Source: Escherichia phage moskry
Strand: one strand, 5' to 3'
Sequence record: MN850651.1
Length of the DNA: 64,000 nucleotides
A program made the position numbers and the translations under genes. The notes beneath the pieces were generated by a model. That model was given only the letters and a program-made list of their open reading frames with translations, searched no databases and was not told where the DNA came from. Positions 55,458 to 64,000 of the stretch are shown here, piece after piece. How positions within the stretch are numbered: the stretch's first letter is position 1; every line of letters starts with the position of its first letter.

Positions 55458-58400
55458 ATGGCCGACATCAAACGTAAGTTCAGAGCCGAAGACGGTCTGG
55501 ACGCCGGTGGCGACAAGATTGTTAACGTAGCATTAGCCGACCGTACAGTAGGTACTGATGGCGTAAACGTTGACTTCCTGGTACAAGAAAACACCGTTCA
55601 AGTATATGATTCTACGCGTGGATATAACAAAGGATTTGTTGTTCTTTATGACAACCGTTTATATCAAGCAATAAATGATATCGTGTCTCCTTCCGGGGCA
55701 TTTAACCTTTTACAATGGCGTGCAGTTCGTACCGATGCACAATGGATAACTGTAGCTTCTGGGACTTATCAACTTTCTTCAGGTGAATCGATTTCGGTTA
55801 ACACCGGTGCCGGCAATGATATGGTTTTCACGTTGCCAAATGCGCCGGTTGATGGTGACACTATTGTTTTGGCTGATATTGGTGGAAGAACCGGGGCAGT
55901 TAAAGTACAGATTAACGCGTCTGTGCAGAGTATTTTAAACTTTAGAGGCGAACAAGTTCGTACAGTTTTAATGACGCGTCCGCGTTCACAACTAGTGTTT
56001 GTGTTTAGTAATCGTTTGTGGCAGATGTATATCATTGATTACGGTAAAGAATCAATCACTGTTACACCTGCTACACCATATCAAGCGCAAGCAAACGATT
56101 TTATTGTTCTTCGTTTTACTAGTGCAGCACCAATCAACATTACACTTCCACGTAATGCTAACAATGGTGATATAATCAGCCTAGTTGATTTAGATAAATT
56201 AAACCCACTGTATCATACGATTATTAAAACATTTGATGATACAACGTCTATTGGCGAAGTCGGGACTCATATCGTCGAAGGCAGAACTTCTTCTGACGCG
56301 TTTTTTGTTTTTGATGCTGCAAATAGTTTATGGCGTATATGGGAAGGCGACCAGAAATCACGTCTTCGTATTATCCGTACAGATTCAAATATTCGCCCAA
56401 ATGAAGAAGTTCTTATTTTTGGTACAAATAACGCTACAGCAGAAACTATTAACCTTACGCTTCCTACAGGAATTTTGACCGGTGACACTGTTAAAATTTC
56501 AATGAACTACATGCGTAAAGGCCAAACAGTAAAAATTAAAGCTGCCGAAGGTGATACAATTGCTTCTTCTGTCGCATTACTTCAGTTCCCTAAACGTTCT
56601 GAATATCCACCTGATGCTCAATGGGTCTCTGTTACTGAACTAGAATTCAATGGCACTACTTCATATGTTCCTGTATTAGAATTAGCGTATATCGAAGACA
56701 CCGATTCTGACACTCATTATTGGGTTGTGCAACAGAATGTCCCTACGGTAGAACGTGTTGATGCTGGAACTGATGCTACACGAGCTCGTTTAGGTGTTAT
56801 TGCTCTTGCTACTCAAGCGCAAGCAAATGTTGATTTAGAGAATACTCCAGCTAAAGAAGTGGCTATTACTCCTGAAACGTTGGCAAATCGTACAGCAACT
56901 GAAGCTCGACGTGGTATCGCTAAAATTGCTACAACAGCACAAGTTAACCAGAATTCCACAGCATCATTTGTGGACGATACCGTTGTTACGCCTAAAAAAC
57001 TAAATGAGCGTACAGCAACTGAAACTCGTCGTGGTCTTGCTGAAATTGCTACTCAGGCTGAAACTGATGCCGGTCTTGATGACACAACAATTATTACACC
57101 TAAGAAATTGCAGGCACGTCAGGGTTCTGAAACACTATCTGGTATAGTTAAATATGTATCAACTACTTCTGCTACACCTGCCGCGACTCGTGGAGCTGCA
57201 GGCACTAATGTTTATAATAAAGACACAACCACGTTAACTATTTCTCCTAAAGCCCTTGACCAATATAAAGCAACTTATGCTCAACAAGGTGCAGTAATTT
57301 TAGCTGTCGATAGTGAAGTAATTGCTGGACAATCTCAAGCAGGTTATTCTCATGCTGTAGTAACTCCTGAAACACTACATAAGAAAACTTCTACTGATGG
57401 ACGTATTGGTTTAATTGAAATTGCTACGCAAGCAGAAACTAATGCTGGGACTGATTATACGCGGGCAGTAACGCCTAAGACGTTAAATGATAGGAAAGCT
57501 ACGGAAGGATTATCCGGCATAGCCGAACTTGCTACGCAAGTTGAATTTGATACTGGAACTGATGATACTCGTATCTCGACTCCACTGAAAATTAAAACTC
57601 ATTTTGATTCTTCTGACCGTACCAGTGTTAATTCTGATTCCGGACTTATTGAAGAAGGAACCTTGTGGAACCATTATACTCTTGATATTTCTAAAGCAAA
57701 TGAAACACAACGTGGTACACTTCGCGTAGCGACTCAGGCAGAATCTAATGCAGGAACTTTAGATGATGTTCTTATTACTCCTAAAAAGCTTTTAGGGACT
57801 AAGTCCACTGAAACGTCTGAAGGTGTAATTAAGGTTGCTACTCGGGCTGAAACTGTAACAGGAACTTCTGCTAATACTGCTGTATCGCCTAAGAATTTAA
57901 AATGGATTGTCCAGAATGAACCAACATGGGCTGCTACTACGGCAATTCGTGGATTCGTTAAAACTTCATCCGGTTCTATTACATTCGTTGGTAATGATAC
58001 AGTTGGTTCAACACAACCTTTAGAATCATATGAAAAAAATAGCTATGCTATATCTCCATATGAATTAAACCGTGTACTTGCTAACTATTTGCCATTAAAA
58101 GCAAAAGCTGCTGACGCAAATTTATTAGATGGCATAGATTCATCTCAGTTCATTCGTAGGGATATTGCACAGACGGTTAATGGTTCACTAACCTTAACGA
58201 AACAAACTAATCTGAGTGCCCCTCTTGTATCATCTAGTACTGCTACGTTTGGTGGGTCAGTTTCGGCAAATAGTACATTAACTATTTCTAATACTGGAAC
58301 GGCAACTCGTCTGATTTTTGAGAAAGGACCTCAAACTGGAACTAATCCAGCACAGACGATGACTATCAGAGTTTGGGGAAATCAGTTTGGTGGCGGATCA

Positions 58401-59333
58401 GATACAACACGTTCCACTGTATTTGAAGTTGGTGATGAAACGTCTAATCATTTTTATTCTCAACGTAATAAAGATGGGAATATAGCGTTTAGCATTAATG
58501 GTACTGTGATGCCAATAAACATTAATGCTTCCGGTTTGATGAATGTTAATGGCGTTGCAACATTCGGTCGTTCAGTTACTGCTAATGGCGAATTCATTAG
58601 TAAGTCTGCAAATGCTTTCAGAGCAATTAGTGGTGATTACGGATTCTTTATTCGTAATGACGCTGCTAATACCTATTTTATGCTCACTGCATCAGGCGAT
58701 CAGACTGGCGGATTTAATGGATTACGTCCTTTAGCTATTAATAATGCATCCGGCCAAGTAACGATTGGTGAAGGCTTAATCATTGCCAAAGGTGCTACTA
58801 TAAATTCAGATGGTTTGACTGTTAACTCTAGAATTCGTTCTCAGGGTACTAAAACATCTGACTTATATACTCGTGCGCCAACATCCGATACTGTAGGATT
58901 CTGGTCAATTGATATTAATGATTCAGCCACTTATAACCAGTTCCCTGGTTATTTTAAAATGGTTGAAAAAACTAATGAAGTGTCTGGACTTCCATACTTA
59001 GAACGTGGTGAAGAAGTTAAATCTCCTGGTACTTTGACTCAATTTGGCAATACTCTTGATTCACTTTACCAAGATTGGATTACTTATCCAACAACTCCAG
59101 ACGCACGTACCACTCGCTGGACACGTACATGGCAGAAAACTAAAAATTCTTGGTCAAGTTTTGTTCAAGTATTTGATGGCGGAAACCCTCCTCAACCTTC
59201 TGATATTGGTGCTTTACCTTCTGATAATGCAACAATCGGAAACTTGACAATACGGGATTTCTTAAGGATTGGTAATGTCCGCGTTATTCCAGACCCTGTG
59301 AATAAATCTGTTAAATTCGAGTGGATTGAATAA
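55458..59333 (+). CDS. 34: Long tail fibre proximal subunit gp34
   Basis: 1291 aa; T4 gp34 1289 aa; late promoter upstream. Confidence 0.95.
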   Translation: MADIKRKFRAEDGLDAGGDKIVNVALADRTVGTDGVNVDFLVQENTVQVYDSTRGYNKGFVVLYDNRLYQAINDIVSPSGAFNLLQWRAVRTDAQWITVASGTYQLSSGESISVNTGAGNDMVFTLPNAPVDGDTIVLADIGGRTGAVKVQINASVQSILNFRGEQVRTVLMTRPRSQLVFVFSNRLWQMYIIDYGKESITVTPATPYQAQANDFIVLRFTSAAPINITLPRNANNGDIISLVDLDKLNPLYHTIIKTFDDTTSIGEVGTHIVEGRTSSDAFFVFDAANSLWRIWEGDQKSRLRIIRTDSNIRPNEEVLIFGTNNATAETINLTLPTGILTGDTVKISMNYMRKGQTVKIKAAEGDTIASSVALLQFPKRSEYPPDAQWVSVTELEFNGTTSYVPVLELAYIEDTDSDTHYWVVQQNVPTVERVDAGTDATRARLGVIALATQAQANVDLENTPAKEVAITPETLANRTATEARRGIAKIATTAQVNQNSTASFVDDTVVTPKKLNERTATETRRGLAEIATQAETDAGLDDTTIITPKKLQARQGSETLSGIVKYVSTTSATPAATRGAAGTNVYNKDTTTLTISPKALDQYKATYAQQGAVILAVDSEVIAGQSQAGYSHAVVTPETLHKKTSTDGRIGLIEIATQAETNAGTDYTRAVTPKTLNDRKATEGLSGIAELATQVEFDTGTDDTRISTPLKIKTHFDSSDRTSVNSDSGLIEEGTLWNHYTLDISKANETQRGTLRVATQAESNAGTLDDVLITPKKLLGTKSTETSEGVIKVATRAETVTGTSANTAVSPKNLKWIVQNEPTWAATTAIRGFVKTSSGSITFVGNDTVGSTQPLESYEKNSYAISPYELNRVLANYLPLKAKAADANLLDGIDSSQFIRRDIAQTVNGSLTLTKQTNLSAPLVSSSTATFGGSVSANSTLTISNTGTATRLIFEKGPQTGTNPAQTMTIRVWGNQFGGGSDTTRSTVFEVGDETSNHFYSQRNKDGNIAFSINGTVMPININASGLMNVNGVATFGRSVTANGEFISKSANAFRAISGDYGFFIRNDAANTYFMLTASGDQTGGFNGLRPLAINNASGQVTIGEGLIIAKGATINSDGLTVNSRIRSQGTKTSDLYTRAPTSDTVGFWSIDINDSATYNQFPGYFKMVEKTNEVSGLPYLERGEEVKSPGTLTQFGNTLDSLYQDWITYPTTPDARTTRWTRTWQKTKNSWSSFVQVFDGGNPPQPSDIGALPSDNATIGNLTIRDFLRIGNVRVIPDPVNKSVKFEWIE

Positions 59334-59341
59334 GAGGTATT

Positions 59342-60469
59342 ATGGAAAAATTTATGGCTAAGTTTGGACAAGGATACGTCCAAACGCCATTTTTATCGGA
59401 AAGCAATTCGGTACGATTTAAATTAAGCATAGCGGGCTCTTGTCCGCTATCAACATCTCCTGCTTATATTAAGTTCCAAGATAATCCACTTGGGTCCCAG
59501 GTTTTTTCTGTTGGATTAAACGTTCGTGTAATAAATCCTACAACAGGTGCAGTAGTTGAATCTAAGTCATATAATTTCTCTACTGAAAACGACGCCACGT
59601 CAAGTGCATTTGTTACTTTCATGGACGCATATGCTTCAAATTTTATATTTGCTCTTGTTACTAACGCTAAAACAAACTTTCCACCCGAAGTTCTTACATG
59701 GTTTAATAAAGCCGGAAGTTCTGCTATTCCATTAGCTCAACAAGTTTTAAATATAGTGGACATTTCTTATTCTGCGTTTTATATTTCTGGTAAGAATGCT
59801 ATAGCACTAGAACATATTAAGTATAGTAATAAGAAAACTTCAACCGACTATAGTACACCACTTGATGTTGTGTACGACACGATCGATGATATTGGTGCTA
59901 CCGGCTTCCCTAGACGTACGTACGAATCGACAGACACATTTTTATCTGCTGTTGGAGGTGCTAATAATGAAATTAAAAGGATGCCTACAACGTCCGTTAT
60001 TACACCTCTCACTGGGTATAAATTGAAGCCTGGAGATTTCCTTTATATGAAATTCCAACTAATGGCCGATGCCGATTTGTTAGCACAAGGGACGACGCGA
60101 CTTTCTATTCGTTTCTTTAAATCTCCTTCTACTTCACCTATTTCATCTAAGGATATAAACTTTGATGGGGCCGCAGGTGAATGGAAGATATATGAAGACT
60201 ACATAGAAATTCCTGCTGGTGCTGACGGGTTCACGATTTATTGTTATCGTACAGCTCCAGTCGGGCAAGGTGGATTAAGAAACGTTATATTCACTGAAGT
60301 ATCATGTAATGGAAGCGTTTCAAAACCTGCCGAGTTTGGTATAAATGGTATTCGTGTAAATTATGTTTCAGAATCTTTAAGTGCCCCAGACATAATGACA
60401 TTACCTACTCAATCTTCAACTGATACTGGTAAGGTATTTGGACAAGAATTTAAAGAAGCATCAGAATAA
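59342..60469 (+). CDS. 35: Long tail fibre hinge protein gp35
   Basis: 375 aa; T4 gp35 372 aa. Confidence 0.92.
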   Translation: MEKFMAKFGQGYVQTPFLSESNSVRFKLSIAGSCPLSTSPAYIKFQDNPLGSQVFSVGLNVRVINPTTGAVVESKSYNFSTENDATSSAFVTFMDAYASNFIFALVTNAKTNFPPEVLTWFNKAGSSAIPLAQQVLNIVDISYSAFYISGKNAIALEHIKYSNKKTSTDYSTPLDVVYDTIDDIGATGFPRRTYESTDTFLSAVGGANNEIKRMPTTSVITPLTGYKLKPGDFLYMKFQLMADADLLAQGTTRLSIRFFKSPSTSPISSKDINFDGAAGEWKIYEDYIEIPAGADGFTIYCYRTAPVGQGGLRNVIFTEVSCNGSVSKPAEFGINGIRVNYVSESLSAPDIMTLPTQSSTDTGKVFGQEFKEASE

Positions 60470-60474
60470 ATTTA

Positions 60475-60492
60475 GGGAGACTTCGGTCTCCC
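60475..60492 (+). terminator. Intrinsic terminator after gene 35
   Basis: GGGAGAC-TTCG-GTCTCCC followed by ATTTTTG. Confidence 0.8.
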
Positions 60493-60499
60493 ATTTTTG

Positions 60500-60507
60500 T
60501 ATAAATA
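60500..60507 (+). promoter_or_regulatory. Late promoter TATAAATA upstream of gene 36
   Basis: Exact TATAAATA directly after the gene 35 terminator hairpin. Confidence 0.7.
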
Positions 60508-60531
60508 TGGTATACATATAAGGAGACAACT

Positions 60532-61197
60532 ATGGCCGATTTAAAAGCTGGTAGTACAACTGGCGGTGCTGTCATATGGCATCAAGGTAATTTCCCTTTA
60601 ATGCCAGCAGGTGATGACGTCCTGTATAAAACGTTTAAACTCTATTCAGAATATAATAAACCACAAGCGGCTGATAACGATTTCGTTTCTAAAGCAAATG
60701 GTGGTACGTATGCCGCTCGAGTAACATTTAATAATGGTGTGCAAGTACCTTATGCCGTAAATAACACAAATCAAAGTGGTATTTATCCTGGCAATGGCGA
60801 TGCTGCTACTTTTGATACAGCAAATATTGATATTGTTTCATGGTATGGCATTGGTTTTAAATCATCACAAGGATCTGCAGGTAGAACTGTTGTTGTTAAC
60901 ACTCGTACTGGTGATATCAGCACTAAAGGTGGTATTTATGCAACTGGTCCTGTCCGTTCTAACGCTACTGCTCCGGTTGCAGCAAATGATCTCACAAGAA
61001 AAGATTATGTTGATGGACGAATAAATATTGTTACGGATAACGCAAATTCCCGTGTATTGCGTAAAGGCGATACCATGACTGGTACTTTAACAGCACCAAA
61101 CTTTTTCTCACAGAATCCGGCGTCTGAGGCTAATCATGTTCCTCGTTTCGACCAGATTGTAATTAAAGATTCTGTTCAAGATTTCGGCTATTATTAA
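60532..61197 (+). CDS. 36: Long tail fibre distal connector gp36
   Basis: 221 aa as in T4 gp36; [21 protein letters not shown]. Confidence 0.93.
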
Positions 61198-61205
61198 GAG
61201 GACTT

Positions 61206-64000
61206 ATGGCTACATTAAAACAGATACAATTTAAAAGAAGCAAAGTAGCAGGAGTTAATCCTACTGCAGCACAATTAGCCGAAGGCGAATTAGCGATAAA
61301 CTTAAAAGATCGAACTCTTTTTACTAAAGATGACCTCGGTAATATTATTAGCCTAGGCTTTGCTAAGGGTGGGGATATTAACGGTAATGTAACTCAAACT
61401 GGCGATTATTTACAAAACGGCACGTATAATCTCAATGGAAATCAGTTTGTTTATGCAGGAAAATACATTGAATTTTTACCTAAAACCACTGGAAATGGCG
61501 CTTGGGCTAACCAACATTCGAATAAAGCCCCTATCTTTACAGATTTAAGTTCAACTACTTCTGTTTCAGAATACCATCCACTGATTAAACAACGCTATAA
61601 AGATGGAACTTTTTCTGCTGGTACATTAGTAAACGAAGGTAGTTTTAAATTCCATTATATTGATGAAACCGGGACTTCAAAATACTGGACTTTTAATCGA
61701 AACGGTAATTTTCAAGTTGATTCTGGAAGTTTATTAGTATCTAATGGATATTTAGTTACTCAAAGTAATATTGAAACTAAAGCTGGTTCTTTAATTGGTC
61801 CTAAAGTTATTACCAAAAATATCAATGTGAGCACTAAATCTTGGGACACTAATATTGATACTGCATATGATTTAGTTTCATTACCGACTTGGCAGTATAC
61901 TCCAACCGAAACGGATTTGGATACTAACGGTATAAACTACCTTCGTAAATTCCGCGGACATGTTTCTTCTGCTATTTTCCATGAAGTTGCTGATGCTCGT
62001 TCAGGTAAACCACAGAATATTTCGTATTGGACGGGACGTAATGCTGAAGTTTATCAATGGTCTTATACCACAGATGGGCGTATGTCCGTTGCTAATTCGA
62101 TAGGTATAGGTCTTGCTGATGTTGGTGACCAAGGACGTTATCCATTGGTTTCGTTTGGTAAAGGTATTGCAATTGGTGACAATGATACTGGTATTAAATG
62201 GGTTCGTGACGGGGTTATCGATTTAGTTGCGAATGGTATTTCTGCCGGCACTATTCTTAATAACGGTATTAACAGCACTAAGAAATTGATGGTCGGTTAT
62301 AGTCGAGATTCTGGTTCTACTTGGGATTACCCAAATAACAACCAAGCAATGTTTACTGCGCGTACCGATGTTGATGGTAATAATAACGGTGACGGTCAGA
62401 CTCATATTGGTTATAGTAGCAATGCCAAGATGTATCACTATTTCCGTGGCACTGGTCGTATGTCCGTTAGTATGGGTGATGGGCTTCTTGTTGAGCCTGG
62501 CATTTTAGATATTAAAACCAGTTCAAATAGGGTTGCTATTAGAGCAGATGGTACATTTGACTCAACCCAACGTATTTCAATGCGTACTGGGTTATTTTTA
62601 TCAGGTGATGACAATACCAATGCTTTGACATTTAAAGCGCCTACAGGCGTTGACGGGACAAAAACCATTAACTGGGATGCAGGTACTCGTAATGGACAGA
62701 ATAAAAATACTGTAACCATTAAAGCATGGGGTAACTCATTTAACGCTGAAAAGGGTAATAGAGAAACTGTATTTGAAGTATCAGATTCACAAGGTTATTA
62801 TTTTTATGCTCAACGTACCAACCCGGCTTCTGGTGAAACAGTAGGTCCGGTTAACTTTAAATTTAACGGAACTGTCGAAACAGGCCATATCATAGGCCTT
62901 GGTAATATAAGTGCCTCCGGTACAGGTTCTTTTGGTGGCAATGTTACCATGACTAATGGCCTGTTTGTCCAAGGTGGTTCTTCTATTACCGGTCAAGTTA
63001 AAATCGGCGGAACAGCTGATGCATTAAGAATTTGGAATGCTGAATACGGGGCTATTTTCCGTCGTTCTGAAGATAAGCTTTATATTATTCCAACTCCACA
63101 GAATGCTGGTGAATCAGGTGGTATTTCTAATTTACGTCCGTTCTATATTACATTAAGTAATGGTAAAGTTTCCATGGATCATGATGTAGATATCGGTGGA
63201 GGTAGATTTAAAGTAGAAGTGGCTGGAACTACTGCTAGTCAACGCATAACAGTAAATATGGCATCAGATGCTATTAGAATAAATGCTCCAACACAAGAGT
63301 CTTCTAACTTCATCCAAGGACGTAAAGCAGATGTTCCGAAATGGTATTTAGGTATTGGCGATGGCGGAAACGTCGTTCGTATGCATAGTTACACCTATTC
63401 CCATGGTATTGCATTAAACTCTGATACGGTTGATATAGCTAAACCTCTTAGAATAGGTTCAACCCAGATTGGTACTGACGGTAACATCACAGGTGGTTCT
63501 GGTAATTTTGCTAACTTGAATACCACAATAAATAACCTTAAGACAGATATTGTCTCAAGTTATCCTATTGGTGCTCCGATTCCTTGGCCTACTGATACAC
63601 CTCCTGAAGGTTATGCCATAATGGAAGGTCAAACATTTGATGTTGACTTGTATCCTAAGTTAGCTGAGGTGTATCCTTCCGGTGCTCTGCCTGATATGCG
63701 TGGTCAAACTATCAAGGGTAAACCATCTGGGCGTGCTGTATTAAGTACAGAAGAAGATGGTGTTAAGTCACATAGCCATAGTGCAAGTGCATCAAGCACA
63801 GATTTGGGTACTAAGACCACTTCTAGTTTTGATTACGGTAGCAAAACGACTTCAAGCTTTGATTATGGTACTAAGACCAGTAATACCACTGGTAACCATA
63901 ACCATACAGTGAGTGGTAATACTAGTGCCGCTGGTAACCACCAGCACTCACAGACAGGCCCAAGAGGACCTAGTAACCAACCGACCGGGATATTTCCTAA
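61206..64000 (+). CDS. 37: Long tail fibre distal subunit gp37, 3'-truncated by window end
   Basis: Open frame from ATG (AAGAGG SD) to window end, about 931 codons; [43 protein letters not shown] matches T4 gp37; C-terminal part has His-x-His boxes as in the T4-type tip. Confidence 0.93.

What the first reader, a model, noticed from the sequence alone, without database searches (positions are those of the whole stretch)
63760..64000. T4-type gp37 fibre tip with His-x-His boxes and a short tandem peptide repeat
The visible C-terminal portion of gp37 contains [19 protein letters not shown] and GNHQHSQTG, matching the metal-coordinating His-x-His boxes of the T4 gp37 tip, so the receptor-binding tip is of the T4 type rather than the T2-type gp38-adhesin arrangement. 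It also has a direct repeat [24 protein letters not shown]. The 3' end lies outside the window, so receptor specificity cannot be judged.
Basis: partly seen in the sequence, partly recalled or inferred. Interest (0 to 1): 0.35.

Follow-up and report, generated by a model that had tools for sequence, protein, structure and literature searches.

The report
T4-type long tail fibre tip
This is the start of an ordinary T4-type tail-fibre tip, an iron-stapled needle that the phage uses to grip its host; its short peptide repeat is an old extra stem unit that, in relatives, always comes with one extra iron-binding box.

Summary
Gene 37 starts at 61206 and runs off the window end, leaving 931 aa visible. 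All quoted motifs sit at 63768-63953.

The T4-type reading is supported:
- The tip matches the T4 gp37 crystal structure 2XGF at E=1.5e-67.
- The three His-x-His boxes align with T4 H883/885, H915/917 and H929/931.
- T2 gp37, and a same-genus phage that has a gp38 adhesin, carry no such boxes.
- All 16 relatives examined with this stem have a 183-aa T4-type gp38 chaperone followed by holin. None has a T2 adhesin.

The window comes from a Mosigvirus (RB69-like) phage, 95-97% identical to several isolates. The source genome is not in the collections, so everything past 64000 is inferred.

The repeat is one extra decapeptide in a four-unit array; T4 has three units. The two copies are 9/10 identical in protein but 23/30 in DNA, so the duplication is old. 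In 65 complete tips, four ascending units always go with four 9-spaced descending His boxes, and three with three. The needle is therefore probably one iron site longer than T4's (8 versus 7).

The head domain is a swappable cassette unrelated to T4's. This is a known kind of structure and of low interest.

The parts
61206..64000 (+). Gene 37 (long tail fibre distal subunit). 5' part only: 931 aa are visible and about 106 aa are missing.
   Evidence: ORF open from ATG 61206 to the window end. It is 914/931 aa identical to HY126 gp37 (1037 aa) and 45% identical to T4 gp37. Pfam hits: gp37_trimer PF20744 and Collar PF07484.
63555..63767 (+). First half of the D10 collar ('knob') domain, aa 784-854, equivalent to T4 811-881.
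   Evidence: Ungapped alignment to T4 and 2XGF. Pfam Collar PF07484 covers aa 789-836 at E=3.9e-11. Domain limits are from Islam 2019.
63771..63779 (+). His box 1 (H856-S-H858), the start of the D11 needle. Aligns with T4 H883/H885.
63780..63896 (+). Ascending stem strand: four decapeptide units, [10 protein letters not shown] / [10 protein letters not shown] / [10 protein letters not shown] / [10 protein letters not shown]4 has three. The extra unit is either 63810-63839 or 63840-63869.
   Evidence: The alignment with 2XGF shows a 10-aa insertion relative to T4. Units 1 and 2 are 9/10 aa and 23/30 nt identical. The box1-box2 spacing is 42 here against 32 in T4.
63897..63905 (+). His box 2 (H898-N-H900). 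Aligns with T4 H915/H917.
63939..63947 (+). His box 3 (H912-Q-H914). Aligns with T4 H929/H931. It is also the point where many relatives lose homology, i.e. the cassette junction.
   Evidence: Megablast matches of many relatives end at query nt 2729-2741. The DNA alignment shows SHSML-52-1 diverging here.
63948..64000 (+). First 17 aa of the head (receptor-contact) cassette, [17 protein letters not shown]. It is unrelated to the T4 head.
   Evidence: 100% nt identity over the last ~100 nt to HY126, OZ035759 and an SRA contig. This head type is found in about 30 phage records. The T4 head sequence differs.
60532..61197 (+). Gene 36 (hinge/distal connector), the upstream neighbour in the gp34-35-36-37 tail-fibre module.
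   Evidence: The exact protein occurs on many Mosigvirus contigs, each with a Collar-domain gp37 (Pfam) and a 183-aa gp38 downstream; box architecture read.

Best explanation
The region encodes the beginning of a T4-type receptor-binding tip of the long tail fibre distal subunit gp37, in a Mosigvirus (RB69-like) phage.

How the tip is built. After the D10 collar domain, the chain enters the D11 needle. Three chains run out to the head and back, forming a six-stranded antiparallel needle. Its core is stapled by iron ions, and each ion is held by the His-x-His box of all three chains. The window shows only the outgoing (ascending) strand:
- box 1;
- four decapeptide spacer units;
- box 2;
- box 3, 14 aa further on;
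- the first 17 aa of the head.

The repeat. The tandem peptide repeat is one extra spacer unit relative to T4. In every complete homologue, this extra ascending unit comes with one extra 9-aa GIGAHxHxV box on the returning strand. The needle of this phage is therefore predicted to be one rung longer than T4's, with 8 iron sites instead of 7.

The head. It is a 56-aa cassette unrelated to T4's. It is exchanged between phages at boxes 3 and 4, and it should set receptor specificity. The most likely receptors are OmpC and/or LPS core, as for other T4-type tips.

Folding. It should need a 183-aa gp38 chaperone, encoded just past the window end, plus gp57A.

Shown versus inferred. Shown here: the homology, the motif alignment, the spacing covariation and the gene order in relatives. 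Inferred: iron binding, the 8th site, the continuation beyond nt 64000, and the receptor.
For: Homology and identity of the phage:
- 2XGF match at E=1.5e-67, covering the collar and the ascending needle.
- The boxes align with T4 H883/885, 915/917 and 929/931.
- T4 H929/H931 are iron ligands essential for plaque formation, and the T4 needle holds seven Fe (PMC6957217).
- The needle is six-stranded because the chain doubles back at the head (PMC12609058).
- The window is 95-97% identical to Mosigvirus isolates over 24 kb.
- The best gp37 relatives are 97% nt and 98% aa identical, and identical over the last ~100 nt.

Relatives:
- All relatives with this stem have gp37 of 960-1081 aa ending in ...NYIVRLA, with box spacing 42,14,head,14,9,9,9. 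A 183-aa gp38 and then holin follow.
- The gp38 is Caudo_TAP and 67.6% identical to T4 gp38.
- T2 and AV109 (adhesin-type gp38) have no tip HxH.

Covariation in 65 complete tips:
- Box1-box2 gap 32 with two terminal 9-gaps: 34 tips. Gap 42 with three terminal 9-gaps: 28 tips. No exceptions (Fisher p=3e-18).
- No mixed clusters at 70% identity.
- All four combinations with and without the paired 14-aa modules occur.

Age of the duplication:
- The duplicated units are diverged in DNA (23/30) but not in protein (9/10).

Receptor literature:
- Mosigvirus phages with T4-like gp37 plus a chaperone are described, with OmpC shown for AV117 and AV118 (PMC10844046).
- 17 OmpC-specific Straboviridae carry variable T4-type D11 tips (bioRxiv 10.64898/2026.04.02.716166).
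Against: - The returning strand, the head, the stop codon and gene 38 lie outside the window, and the exact source genome could not be found. The gp34 protein is on no record, and the one contig carrying the identical gp35 is only 96% identical.
- Tail-fibre tips recombine often. Four different heads sit on this stem, and the shaft is mosaic. The unseen part could therefore differ from the relatives.
- Iron binding and the pairing of ascending units with descending boxes are inferred from spacing statistics and the published T4 structure, not from a model. An AlphaFold2 monomer model of a complete 8-box tip was uninformative (mean pLDDT 58, pTM 0.23).
- The 65 tips are phylogenetically related, so the Fisher p-value overstates their independence.
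Confidence: 0.88

Rival explanations
1. T2/T6-type arrangement. On this reading, gp37 ends in a domain that is cleaved and capped by a separate ~260-aa glycine-rich gp38 adhesin, and the HxH strings are incidental.
For: Some Mosigvirus phages, such as AV109, AV111, AV114 and AV115, do use gp38 adhesins (PMC10844046). The window does not show gene 38.
Against: - Homology to T2 gp37 stops at window aa ~822, and nothing matches the T2 C-terminal 480 aa beyond weak shaft repeats.
- T2 and AV109 gp37 have no tip HxH boxes.
- Megablast matches of AV109, AV114 and AV115 stop at query nt ~2320, before the collar.
- The window matches the T4 tip structure at E=1.5e-67.
Confidence: 0.01
2. The ascending stem is T4-type, but the unseen remainder differs from the relatives. 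It might carry another head cassette, a truncated gene, or a returning strand with a different number of boxes.
For: The locus is mosaic: at least four heads sit on one stem, the gp37 shaft has divergent patches, and the source genome is not on record.
Against: - The last ~100 nt, including the first 53 nt of the head cassette, are identical to three relatives that all continue in the same way.
- The spacing rule had no exception in 65 tips.
- Every relative with this stem has the same returning strand and the same gp38.
Confidence: 0.08
3. The decapeptide repeat is a recent replication-slippage event or an assembly artefact, with no structural role.
For: It is a perfect in-frame tandem of 30 nt, and T4 lacks the second copy.
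Against: - The copies differ at 7 of 30 nt with only one amino-acid change, so both have been under selection for a long time.
- TRF does not see a DNA repeat.
- The same two-copy array is present in all Mosigvirus relatives and in many enterobacterial prophage fibres.
- It is always matched by an extra returning His box.
Confidence: 0.02

Closest known systems
Bacteriophage T4 gp37 receptor-binding tip (PDB 2XGF; domains D10 collar and D11 needle/head) with the gp38 and gp57A chaperones
   Same: - The collar domain, the three ascending His boxes and the [10 protein letters not shown] unit align residue for residue (E=1.5e-67).
- In relatives, the returning boxes, the ...NYIVRLA end and a 183-aa gp38 that is 67.6% identical to T4's are also shared.
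   Different: - There is one extra ascending decapeptide and, in relatives, one extra returning GIGAHxHxV box: 8 boxes against 7.
- The head is 56 aa against 37 aa between boxes 3 and 4, and it is unrelated in sequence.
- The shaft is only ~45% identical.
T4-like gp37 of Mosigvirus isolates (HY126, UGJNEcP1/2, SSE1, JK42, mar005P1, GADS24; also AV110, SHSML-52-1 and MM02 with other heads)
   Same: - Same gene, same stem and same architecture (42,14,head,14,9,9,9).
- 97% nt and 98% aa identity to HY126.
- Annotated in GenBank and in Vitt 2024 as T4-like gp37 plus a gp38 chaperone.
   Different: - The window's phage is not identical to any record.
- AV110, SHSML-52-1, phiD1 and MM02 carry other head cassettes from box 3 onward.
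Side tail fibre (Stf-like) tips of enterobacterial prophages and their Tfa (Caudo_TAP) assembly proteins
   Same: - 277 proteins, mostly partial tail fibres from E. coli, Salmonella and Citrobacter genomes, share the collar plus His-box needle and the ...NYIVRLA end.
- They follow the same spacing rules.
- gp38 of relatives hits Pfam Caudo_TAP.
   Different: - They sit on different shafts and in different phage types.
- Many have shorter needles with 5 or 6 boxes and no 14-aa modules.
T2/T6-type distal fibre: gp37 capped by a gp38 adhesin with glycine-rich motifs
   Same: - Same position in the genome.
- Homologous gp37 N-terminal region and shaft: 45% identity over window aa 1-822.
   Different: - No D11 needle and no His boxes.
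- gp38 is 262 aa, glycine-rich and unrelated to the chaperone.

Membership tests
T4-type gp37 receptor-binding tip (2XGF-like) | Significant sequence homology to the solved T4 gp37 tip | tested here: met
   phmmer against PDB: 2xgf_A at E=1.5e-67, query aa 92-248 of the 264-aa query against chain residues 2-148.
T4-type gp37 receptor-binding tip (2XGF-like) | Phage tail collar domain (D10) immediately before the needle | tested here: met
   Pfam PF07484 at aa 789-836, E=3.9e-11, above the curated cut-off. Ungapped alignment to T4 811-881.
T4-type gp37 receptor-binding tip (2XGF-like) | G-x-H-x-H boxes on the ascending strand, aligned with T4's iron-coordinating histidines | tested here: met
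   H856/858, H898/900 and H912/914 align with T4 H883/885, H915/917 and H929/931. There are no other HxH in aa 1-855.
T4-type gp37 receptor-binding tip (2XGF-like) | Returning strand with matching His boxes and the conserved C-terminus ...NTVKN(I/V)AFNYIVRLA | not testable with these tools
   This lies beyond nt 64000 and the source genome is not on record. It is met in every relative with this stem.
T4-type gp37 receptor-binding tip (2XGF-like) | A 183-aa gp38 chaperone (Caudo_TAP) encoded directly downstream | not testable with these tools
   Outside the window. Present in all 16 relatives read. HY126 gp38 is 67.6% identical to T4 gp38 and hits PF02413.
T4-type gp37 receptor-binding tip (2XGF-like) | Trimeric six-stranded needle with metal ions on the axis | tested here: inconclusive
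   An AlphaFold2 monomer model of a complete 8-box homologue (P0003, 58-sequence alignment) gave mean pLDDT 58 and pTM 0.23, which is not usable. Metal binding is not testable in silico here.
T2/T6-type gp37 with gp38 adhesin | gp37 C-terminal region homologous to T2 gp37 aa ~860-1341 (gp38-docking and cleaved part) | tested here: not met
   The BLASTP alignment between window and T2 gp37 ends at window aa 822 / T2 aa 861. Only weak shaft-repeat hits lie beyond.
T2/T6-type gp37 with gp38 adhesin | No His-box needle in gp37 | tested here: not met
   T2 gp37 has no tip HxH and AV109 gp37 has none at all. The window has three aligned boxes.
T2/T6-type gp37 with gp38 adhesin | A ~260-aa glycine-rich gp38 downstream | not testable with these tools
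   Outside the window. No relative with this stem has one. T2 (262 aa) and AV109 (263 aa) show what it would look like.

The most novel reading that the evidence does not exclude
The His-box needle is built from paired length modules. Each ascending decapeptide ([14 protein letters not shown]) is matched by one returning 9-aa GIGAHxHxV iron box. Each ascending 14-aa box module is matched by a returning 14-aa one. Needles therefore come in discrete lengths of 5, 6, 7 or 8 iron sites. On this reading the window's phage has the longest form seen in this sample (8 sites, 48 Fe per virion against 42 in T4). Stem length would then be an evolvable parameter, separate from the swappable head, perhaps setting how far the head reaches through LPS or O-antigen. 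I found no paper stating this pairing rule. [quoted passage not shown]
Probability: 0.6. Interest if true: 0.35.

Novelty: already known. Interest (0 to 1): 0.17.

Why it matters
Practically, the result says this phage should be typed as a gp37-tip (T4-type) binder. Host-range prediction or engineering should therefore target the 56-aa head cassette between His boxes 3 and 4, not a gp38 adhesin. The likely receptors are OmpC and/or LPS core.

The finding itself is ordinary. The same gene, at 98% aa identity, is already in GenBank, and T4-like gp37 plus a chaperone is already described for Mosigvirus.

The one modestly new point is the strict pairing between ascending spacer units and returning His boxes. 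It gives a simple sequence rule for predicting needle length and iron content. It also gives a design constraint for chimeric fibres: insert or delete on both strands together.

Tried and rejected
- Tandem Repeats Finder on 63500-64000 found nothing. The repeat is visible only at protein level.
- I tried to recover the true continuation of the gene by exact-protein look-ups. gp36 is too conserved (49 blocks, none the source). gp34 is on no record. gp35 is on one contig that is only 96% identical.
- An AlphaFold2 monomer model of a complete 8-box tip (P0003 with 58 homologues) gave mean pLDDT 58 and pTM 0.23. This is expected for an intertwined trimer, so I ran no fold search on it.
- Bartual et al. 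2010 (PMC2996694) and Tetart et al. 1996 are not held. The full-text search for 'His boxes' with gp37 found nothing. My statement that T4 host-range mutants arise by duplications bounded by His boxes rests only on the title cited and on memory.
- A search for papers on phages sharing this head type (GADS24, mar005P1, SSE1 and others) gave no receptor assignment.
- tRNA and Rfam scans of the whole window were empty.
- A promoter/terminator scan downstream of gp37 in HY126 was at background level.
- The search for homologous proteins listed only fragments of 265 aa or less, mostly prophage fibres. Full-length phage gp37 sequences had to be taken from annotated records instead.
Full report
**1. 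What is in the sequence**

The reading frame that starts at ATG 61206 on the + strand is open to the last base of the window, giving 931 codons with no stop. It follows ORFs of 1291, 375 and 221 aa at 55458-59333, 59342-60469 and 60532-61197. This is the gp34-gp35-gp36-gp37 long-tail-fibre module of T4-like phages.

- [10 protein letters not shown], with His856/His858 at nt 63771-63779.
- [10 protein letters not shown] at 63810-63839.
- [10 protein letters not shown] at 63840-63869.
- TKTS from 63870.
- GNHNHTVSG, with His898/900 at 63897-63905.
- GNHQHSQTG, with His912/914 at 63939-63947.

These features are not chance:
- The best adjacent-decapeptide identity is 9/10. The maximum was 7/10 in 2000 shuffles of the protein and 6/10 in shuffles of the last 120 aa.
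- The protein has three H-x-H motifs, all within 59 residues and none in the first 855. Shuffles give a mean of 0.3 (P(>=3) = 0.001).

Tandem Repeats Finder sees no DNA repeat. The two 30-nt units share only 23 of 30 bases while encoding 9 of 10 identical residues. This is an old duplication kept by selection, not a fresh slippage or an assembly error.

**2. Which phage**

Over 24 kb the window is 95-97% identical to several Mosigvirus (RB69-like Straboviridae) isolates: JK42, SSE1, WFbE185, AV110, UGJNEcP1 and HY126. No record is the source:
- The exact gp34 protein is nowhere on record.
- The one contig with an identical gp35 is 96% identical.
- The identical gp36 is shared by many different phages.

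Everything beyond nt 64000 is therefore inferred from relatives.

**3. Is it a T4-type tip?**

Yes. Homology to T4:
- The last 264 aa match chain A of PDB 2XGF, the T4 gp37 receptor-binding tip, at E=1.5e-67.
- Pfam finds the phage tail collar domain at aa 789-836 and the gp37 trimerisation region further upstream.
- In a three-way alignment with T4 and HY126, the collar aligns without gaps to T4 811-881.
- The three boxes fall on T4 H883/885, H915/917 and H929/931.
- Islam et al. 2019 describe D10 (811-881 plus 1010-1026) and D11 (882-1009). They report seven iron atoms along the needle, and they show that alanine substitution of H929 or H931 abolishes plaque formation (PMC6957217).

Test of the discriminator:
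- T2 gp37 (1341 aa) has no tip H-x-H box. Its homology to the window stops at window aa ~822. Its neighbour is a 262-aa glycine-rich gp38.
- AV109 is a Mosigvirus with a 263-aa gp38. Vitt et al. class it with the T2-like adhesins. Its 1257-aa gp37 has no H-x-H at all.

Relatives that share the window's stem:
- HY126, UGJNEcP1, SHSML-52-1, AV110, phiD1, MM02 and nine public contigs all have a gp37 ending in ...NYIVRLA. A 183-aa gp38 and then holin follow.
- HY126 gp38 is 67.6% identical to T4 gp38 (E=2e-92), hits Pfam Caudo_TAP, and does not match T2 gp38.

The last ~100 nt of the window, including the first 53 nt after box 3, are identical to HY126, OZ035759 and an SRA contig, and all three continue in the same way.

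**4. What the repeat is**

T4 has a single [10 protein letters not shown], so the window has a 10-aa insertion relative to it. Read in register, the segment between boxes 1 and 2 is an array of decapeptides: [10 protein letters not shown] / [10 protein letters not shown] / [10 protein letters not shown] / TKTSNTTGN. That is four units, where T4 has three.

I collected complete tips from a protein search. The hits were mostly prophage side-tail-fibre fragments from E. coli, Salmonella and Citrobacter. I added tips from phage records and measured the spacing between successive H-x-H boxes. Among 65 tips, a box1-box2 gap of 32 (three units) always goes with exactly two terminal 9-residue gaps on the returning strand (34 tips). 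A gap of 42 (four units) always goes with three (28 tips). There were no exceptions (Fisher p=3e-18), and no mixed cluster at 90, 80 or 70% identity.

| Box spacing | Tips | Example |
|---|---|---|
| 32, head, 9, 9 | 20 | |
| 42, head, 9, 9, 9 | 15 | |
| 32, 14, head, 14, 9, 9 | 14 | T4 |
| 42, 14, head, 14, 9, 9, 9 | 12 | the window's type |

- The three tips that lack box 2 also fit when their units are counted by eye.
- With one exception (P0066, which lacks box 2), a 14-aa ascending box module occurs only together with a 14-aa returning module.
- Because all four combinations occur, the two kinds of module vary independently.

Published descriptions explain the pattern. The chain doubles back at the head, so the needle is a six-stranded antiparallel barrel (PMC12609058). 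Any lengthening must therefore be made on both strands.

My inference is that each ascending decapeptide lies alongside one returning GIGAHxHxV iron site. The needle of this phage would then have eight iron sites, one more than T4. In HY126 the two returning GIGAHxHxV units are 22/27 nt and 7/9 aa identical, so they are again old. An AlphaFold2 monomer model could not test the pairing (pLDDT 58, pTM 0.23).

**5. The head and the receptor**

From box 3 onward the window encodes [17 protein letters not shown]. In relatives this is the start of a 56-aa head between boxes 3 and 4, unrelated to the 37-aa T4 segment.
- About 30 phage records carry this head at 75-100% identity.
- On the same stem, other Mosigvirus and Tequatrovirus phages carry at least three other heads of 51-55 aa. 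Sequence identity is lost right at box 3 and resumes at box 4. The head is thus a cassette bounded by conserved His-box DNA.
- No receptor has been published for phages with this head.
- Mosigvirus AV117 and AV118, which have T4-like gp37, need OmpC (PMC10844046).
- A 2026 preprint reports 17 OmpC-specific Straboviridae with highly variable T4-type D11 tips.

OmpC, possibly together with LPS core as in T4, is therefore the best guess. It is only an inference.

**6. Comparison, novelty and verdict**

This is a member of the T4-type gp37 tip family on every defining feature that can be seen in the window. The features that cannot be seen are the returning strand, gp38 and the metal. The sequence-level ones, the returning strand and gp38, are met in all close relatives.

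It is not T2-type. The same gene at 98% aa identity is already in GenBank, and T4-like gp37 plus a gp38 chaperone is already described for Mosigvirus, so the finding is already known and of low interest.

- The visible part is not the C-terminus.
- The repeat is one extra unit in a four-unit stem array.
- The head, not the His boxes, is what differs from T4.

The only point that may be new is the strict ascending-unit/returning-box pairing rule and the predicted eight-iron needle.

Noticed in passing
window 61665-63470 (gp37 shaft); divergent patch at about 62816-62935: The gp37 shaft is mosaic. Contigs that encode an identical gp36 lose megablast identity inside gp37 at different points. One set has a ~120-nt patch at gp37 aa ~537-577. 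Another set loses identity from aa ~153-175 up to aa ~490-755. This indicates recombination within the fibre shaft as well as at the tip.
   Followed up: partly
window 63939-63947 (His box 3), and L001, L005-L008, L010-L018: At least four unrelated head cassettes (51-56 aa) sit on an otherwise near-identical 8-box stem in Mosigvirus and Tequatrovirus relatives. Identity breaks at box 3 and resumes at box 4, which fits recombination in the conserved His-box DNA.
   Followed up: partly
window 55458-61197 (gp34, gp35, gp36): The three proteins are conserved very unevenly in public data. The exact gp36 protein occurs in 49 blocks of assemblies, the exact gp35 on one contig, and the exact gp34 on none. 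The source phage is therefore not in the collections searched.
   Followed up: yes
P0001-P0120: The closest short homologues of the tip are hundreds of partial 'tail fiber protein' fragments from E. coli, Salmonella, Citrobacter and Hafnia genome assemblies. They have the same collar plus His-box needle and the same ...NYIVRLA end. The module is thus shared widely between virulent T4-like phages and prophage side tail fibres.
   Followed up: partly
window 1-64000: No tRNA gene (ARAGORN) and no Rfam family at gathering threshold anywhere in the 64-kb window.
   Followed up: yes
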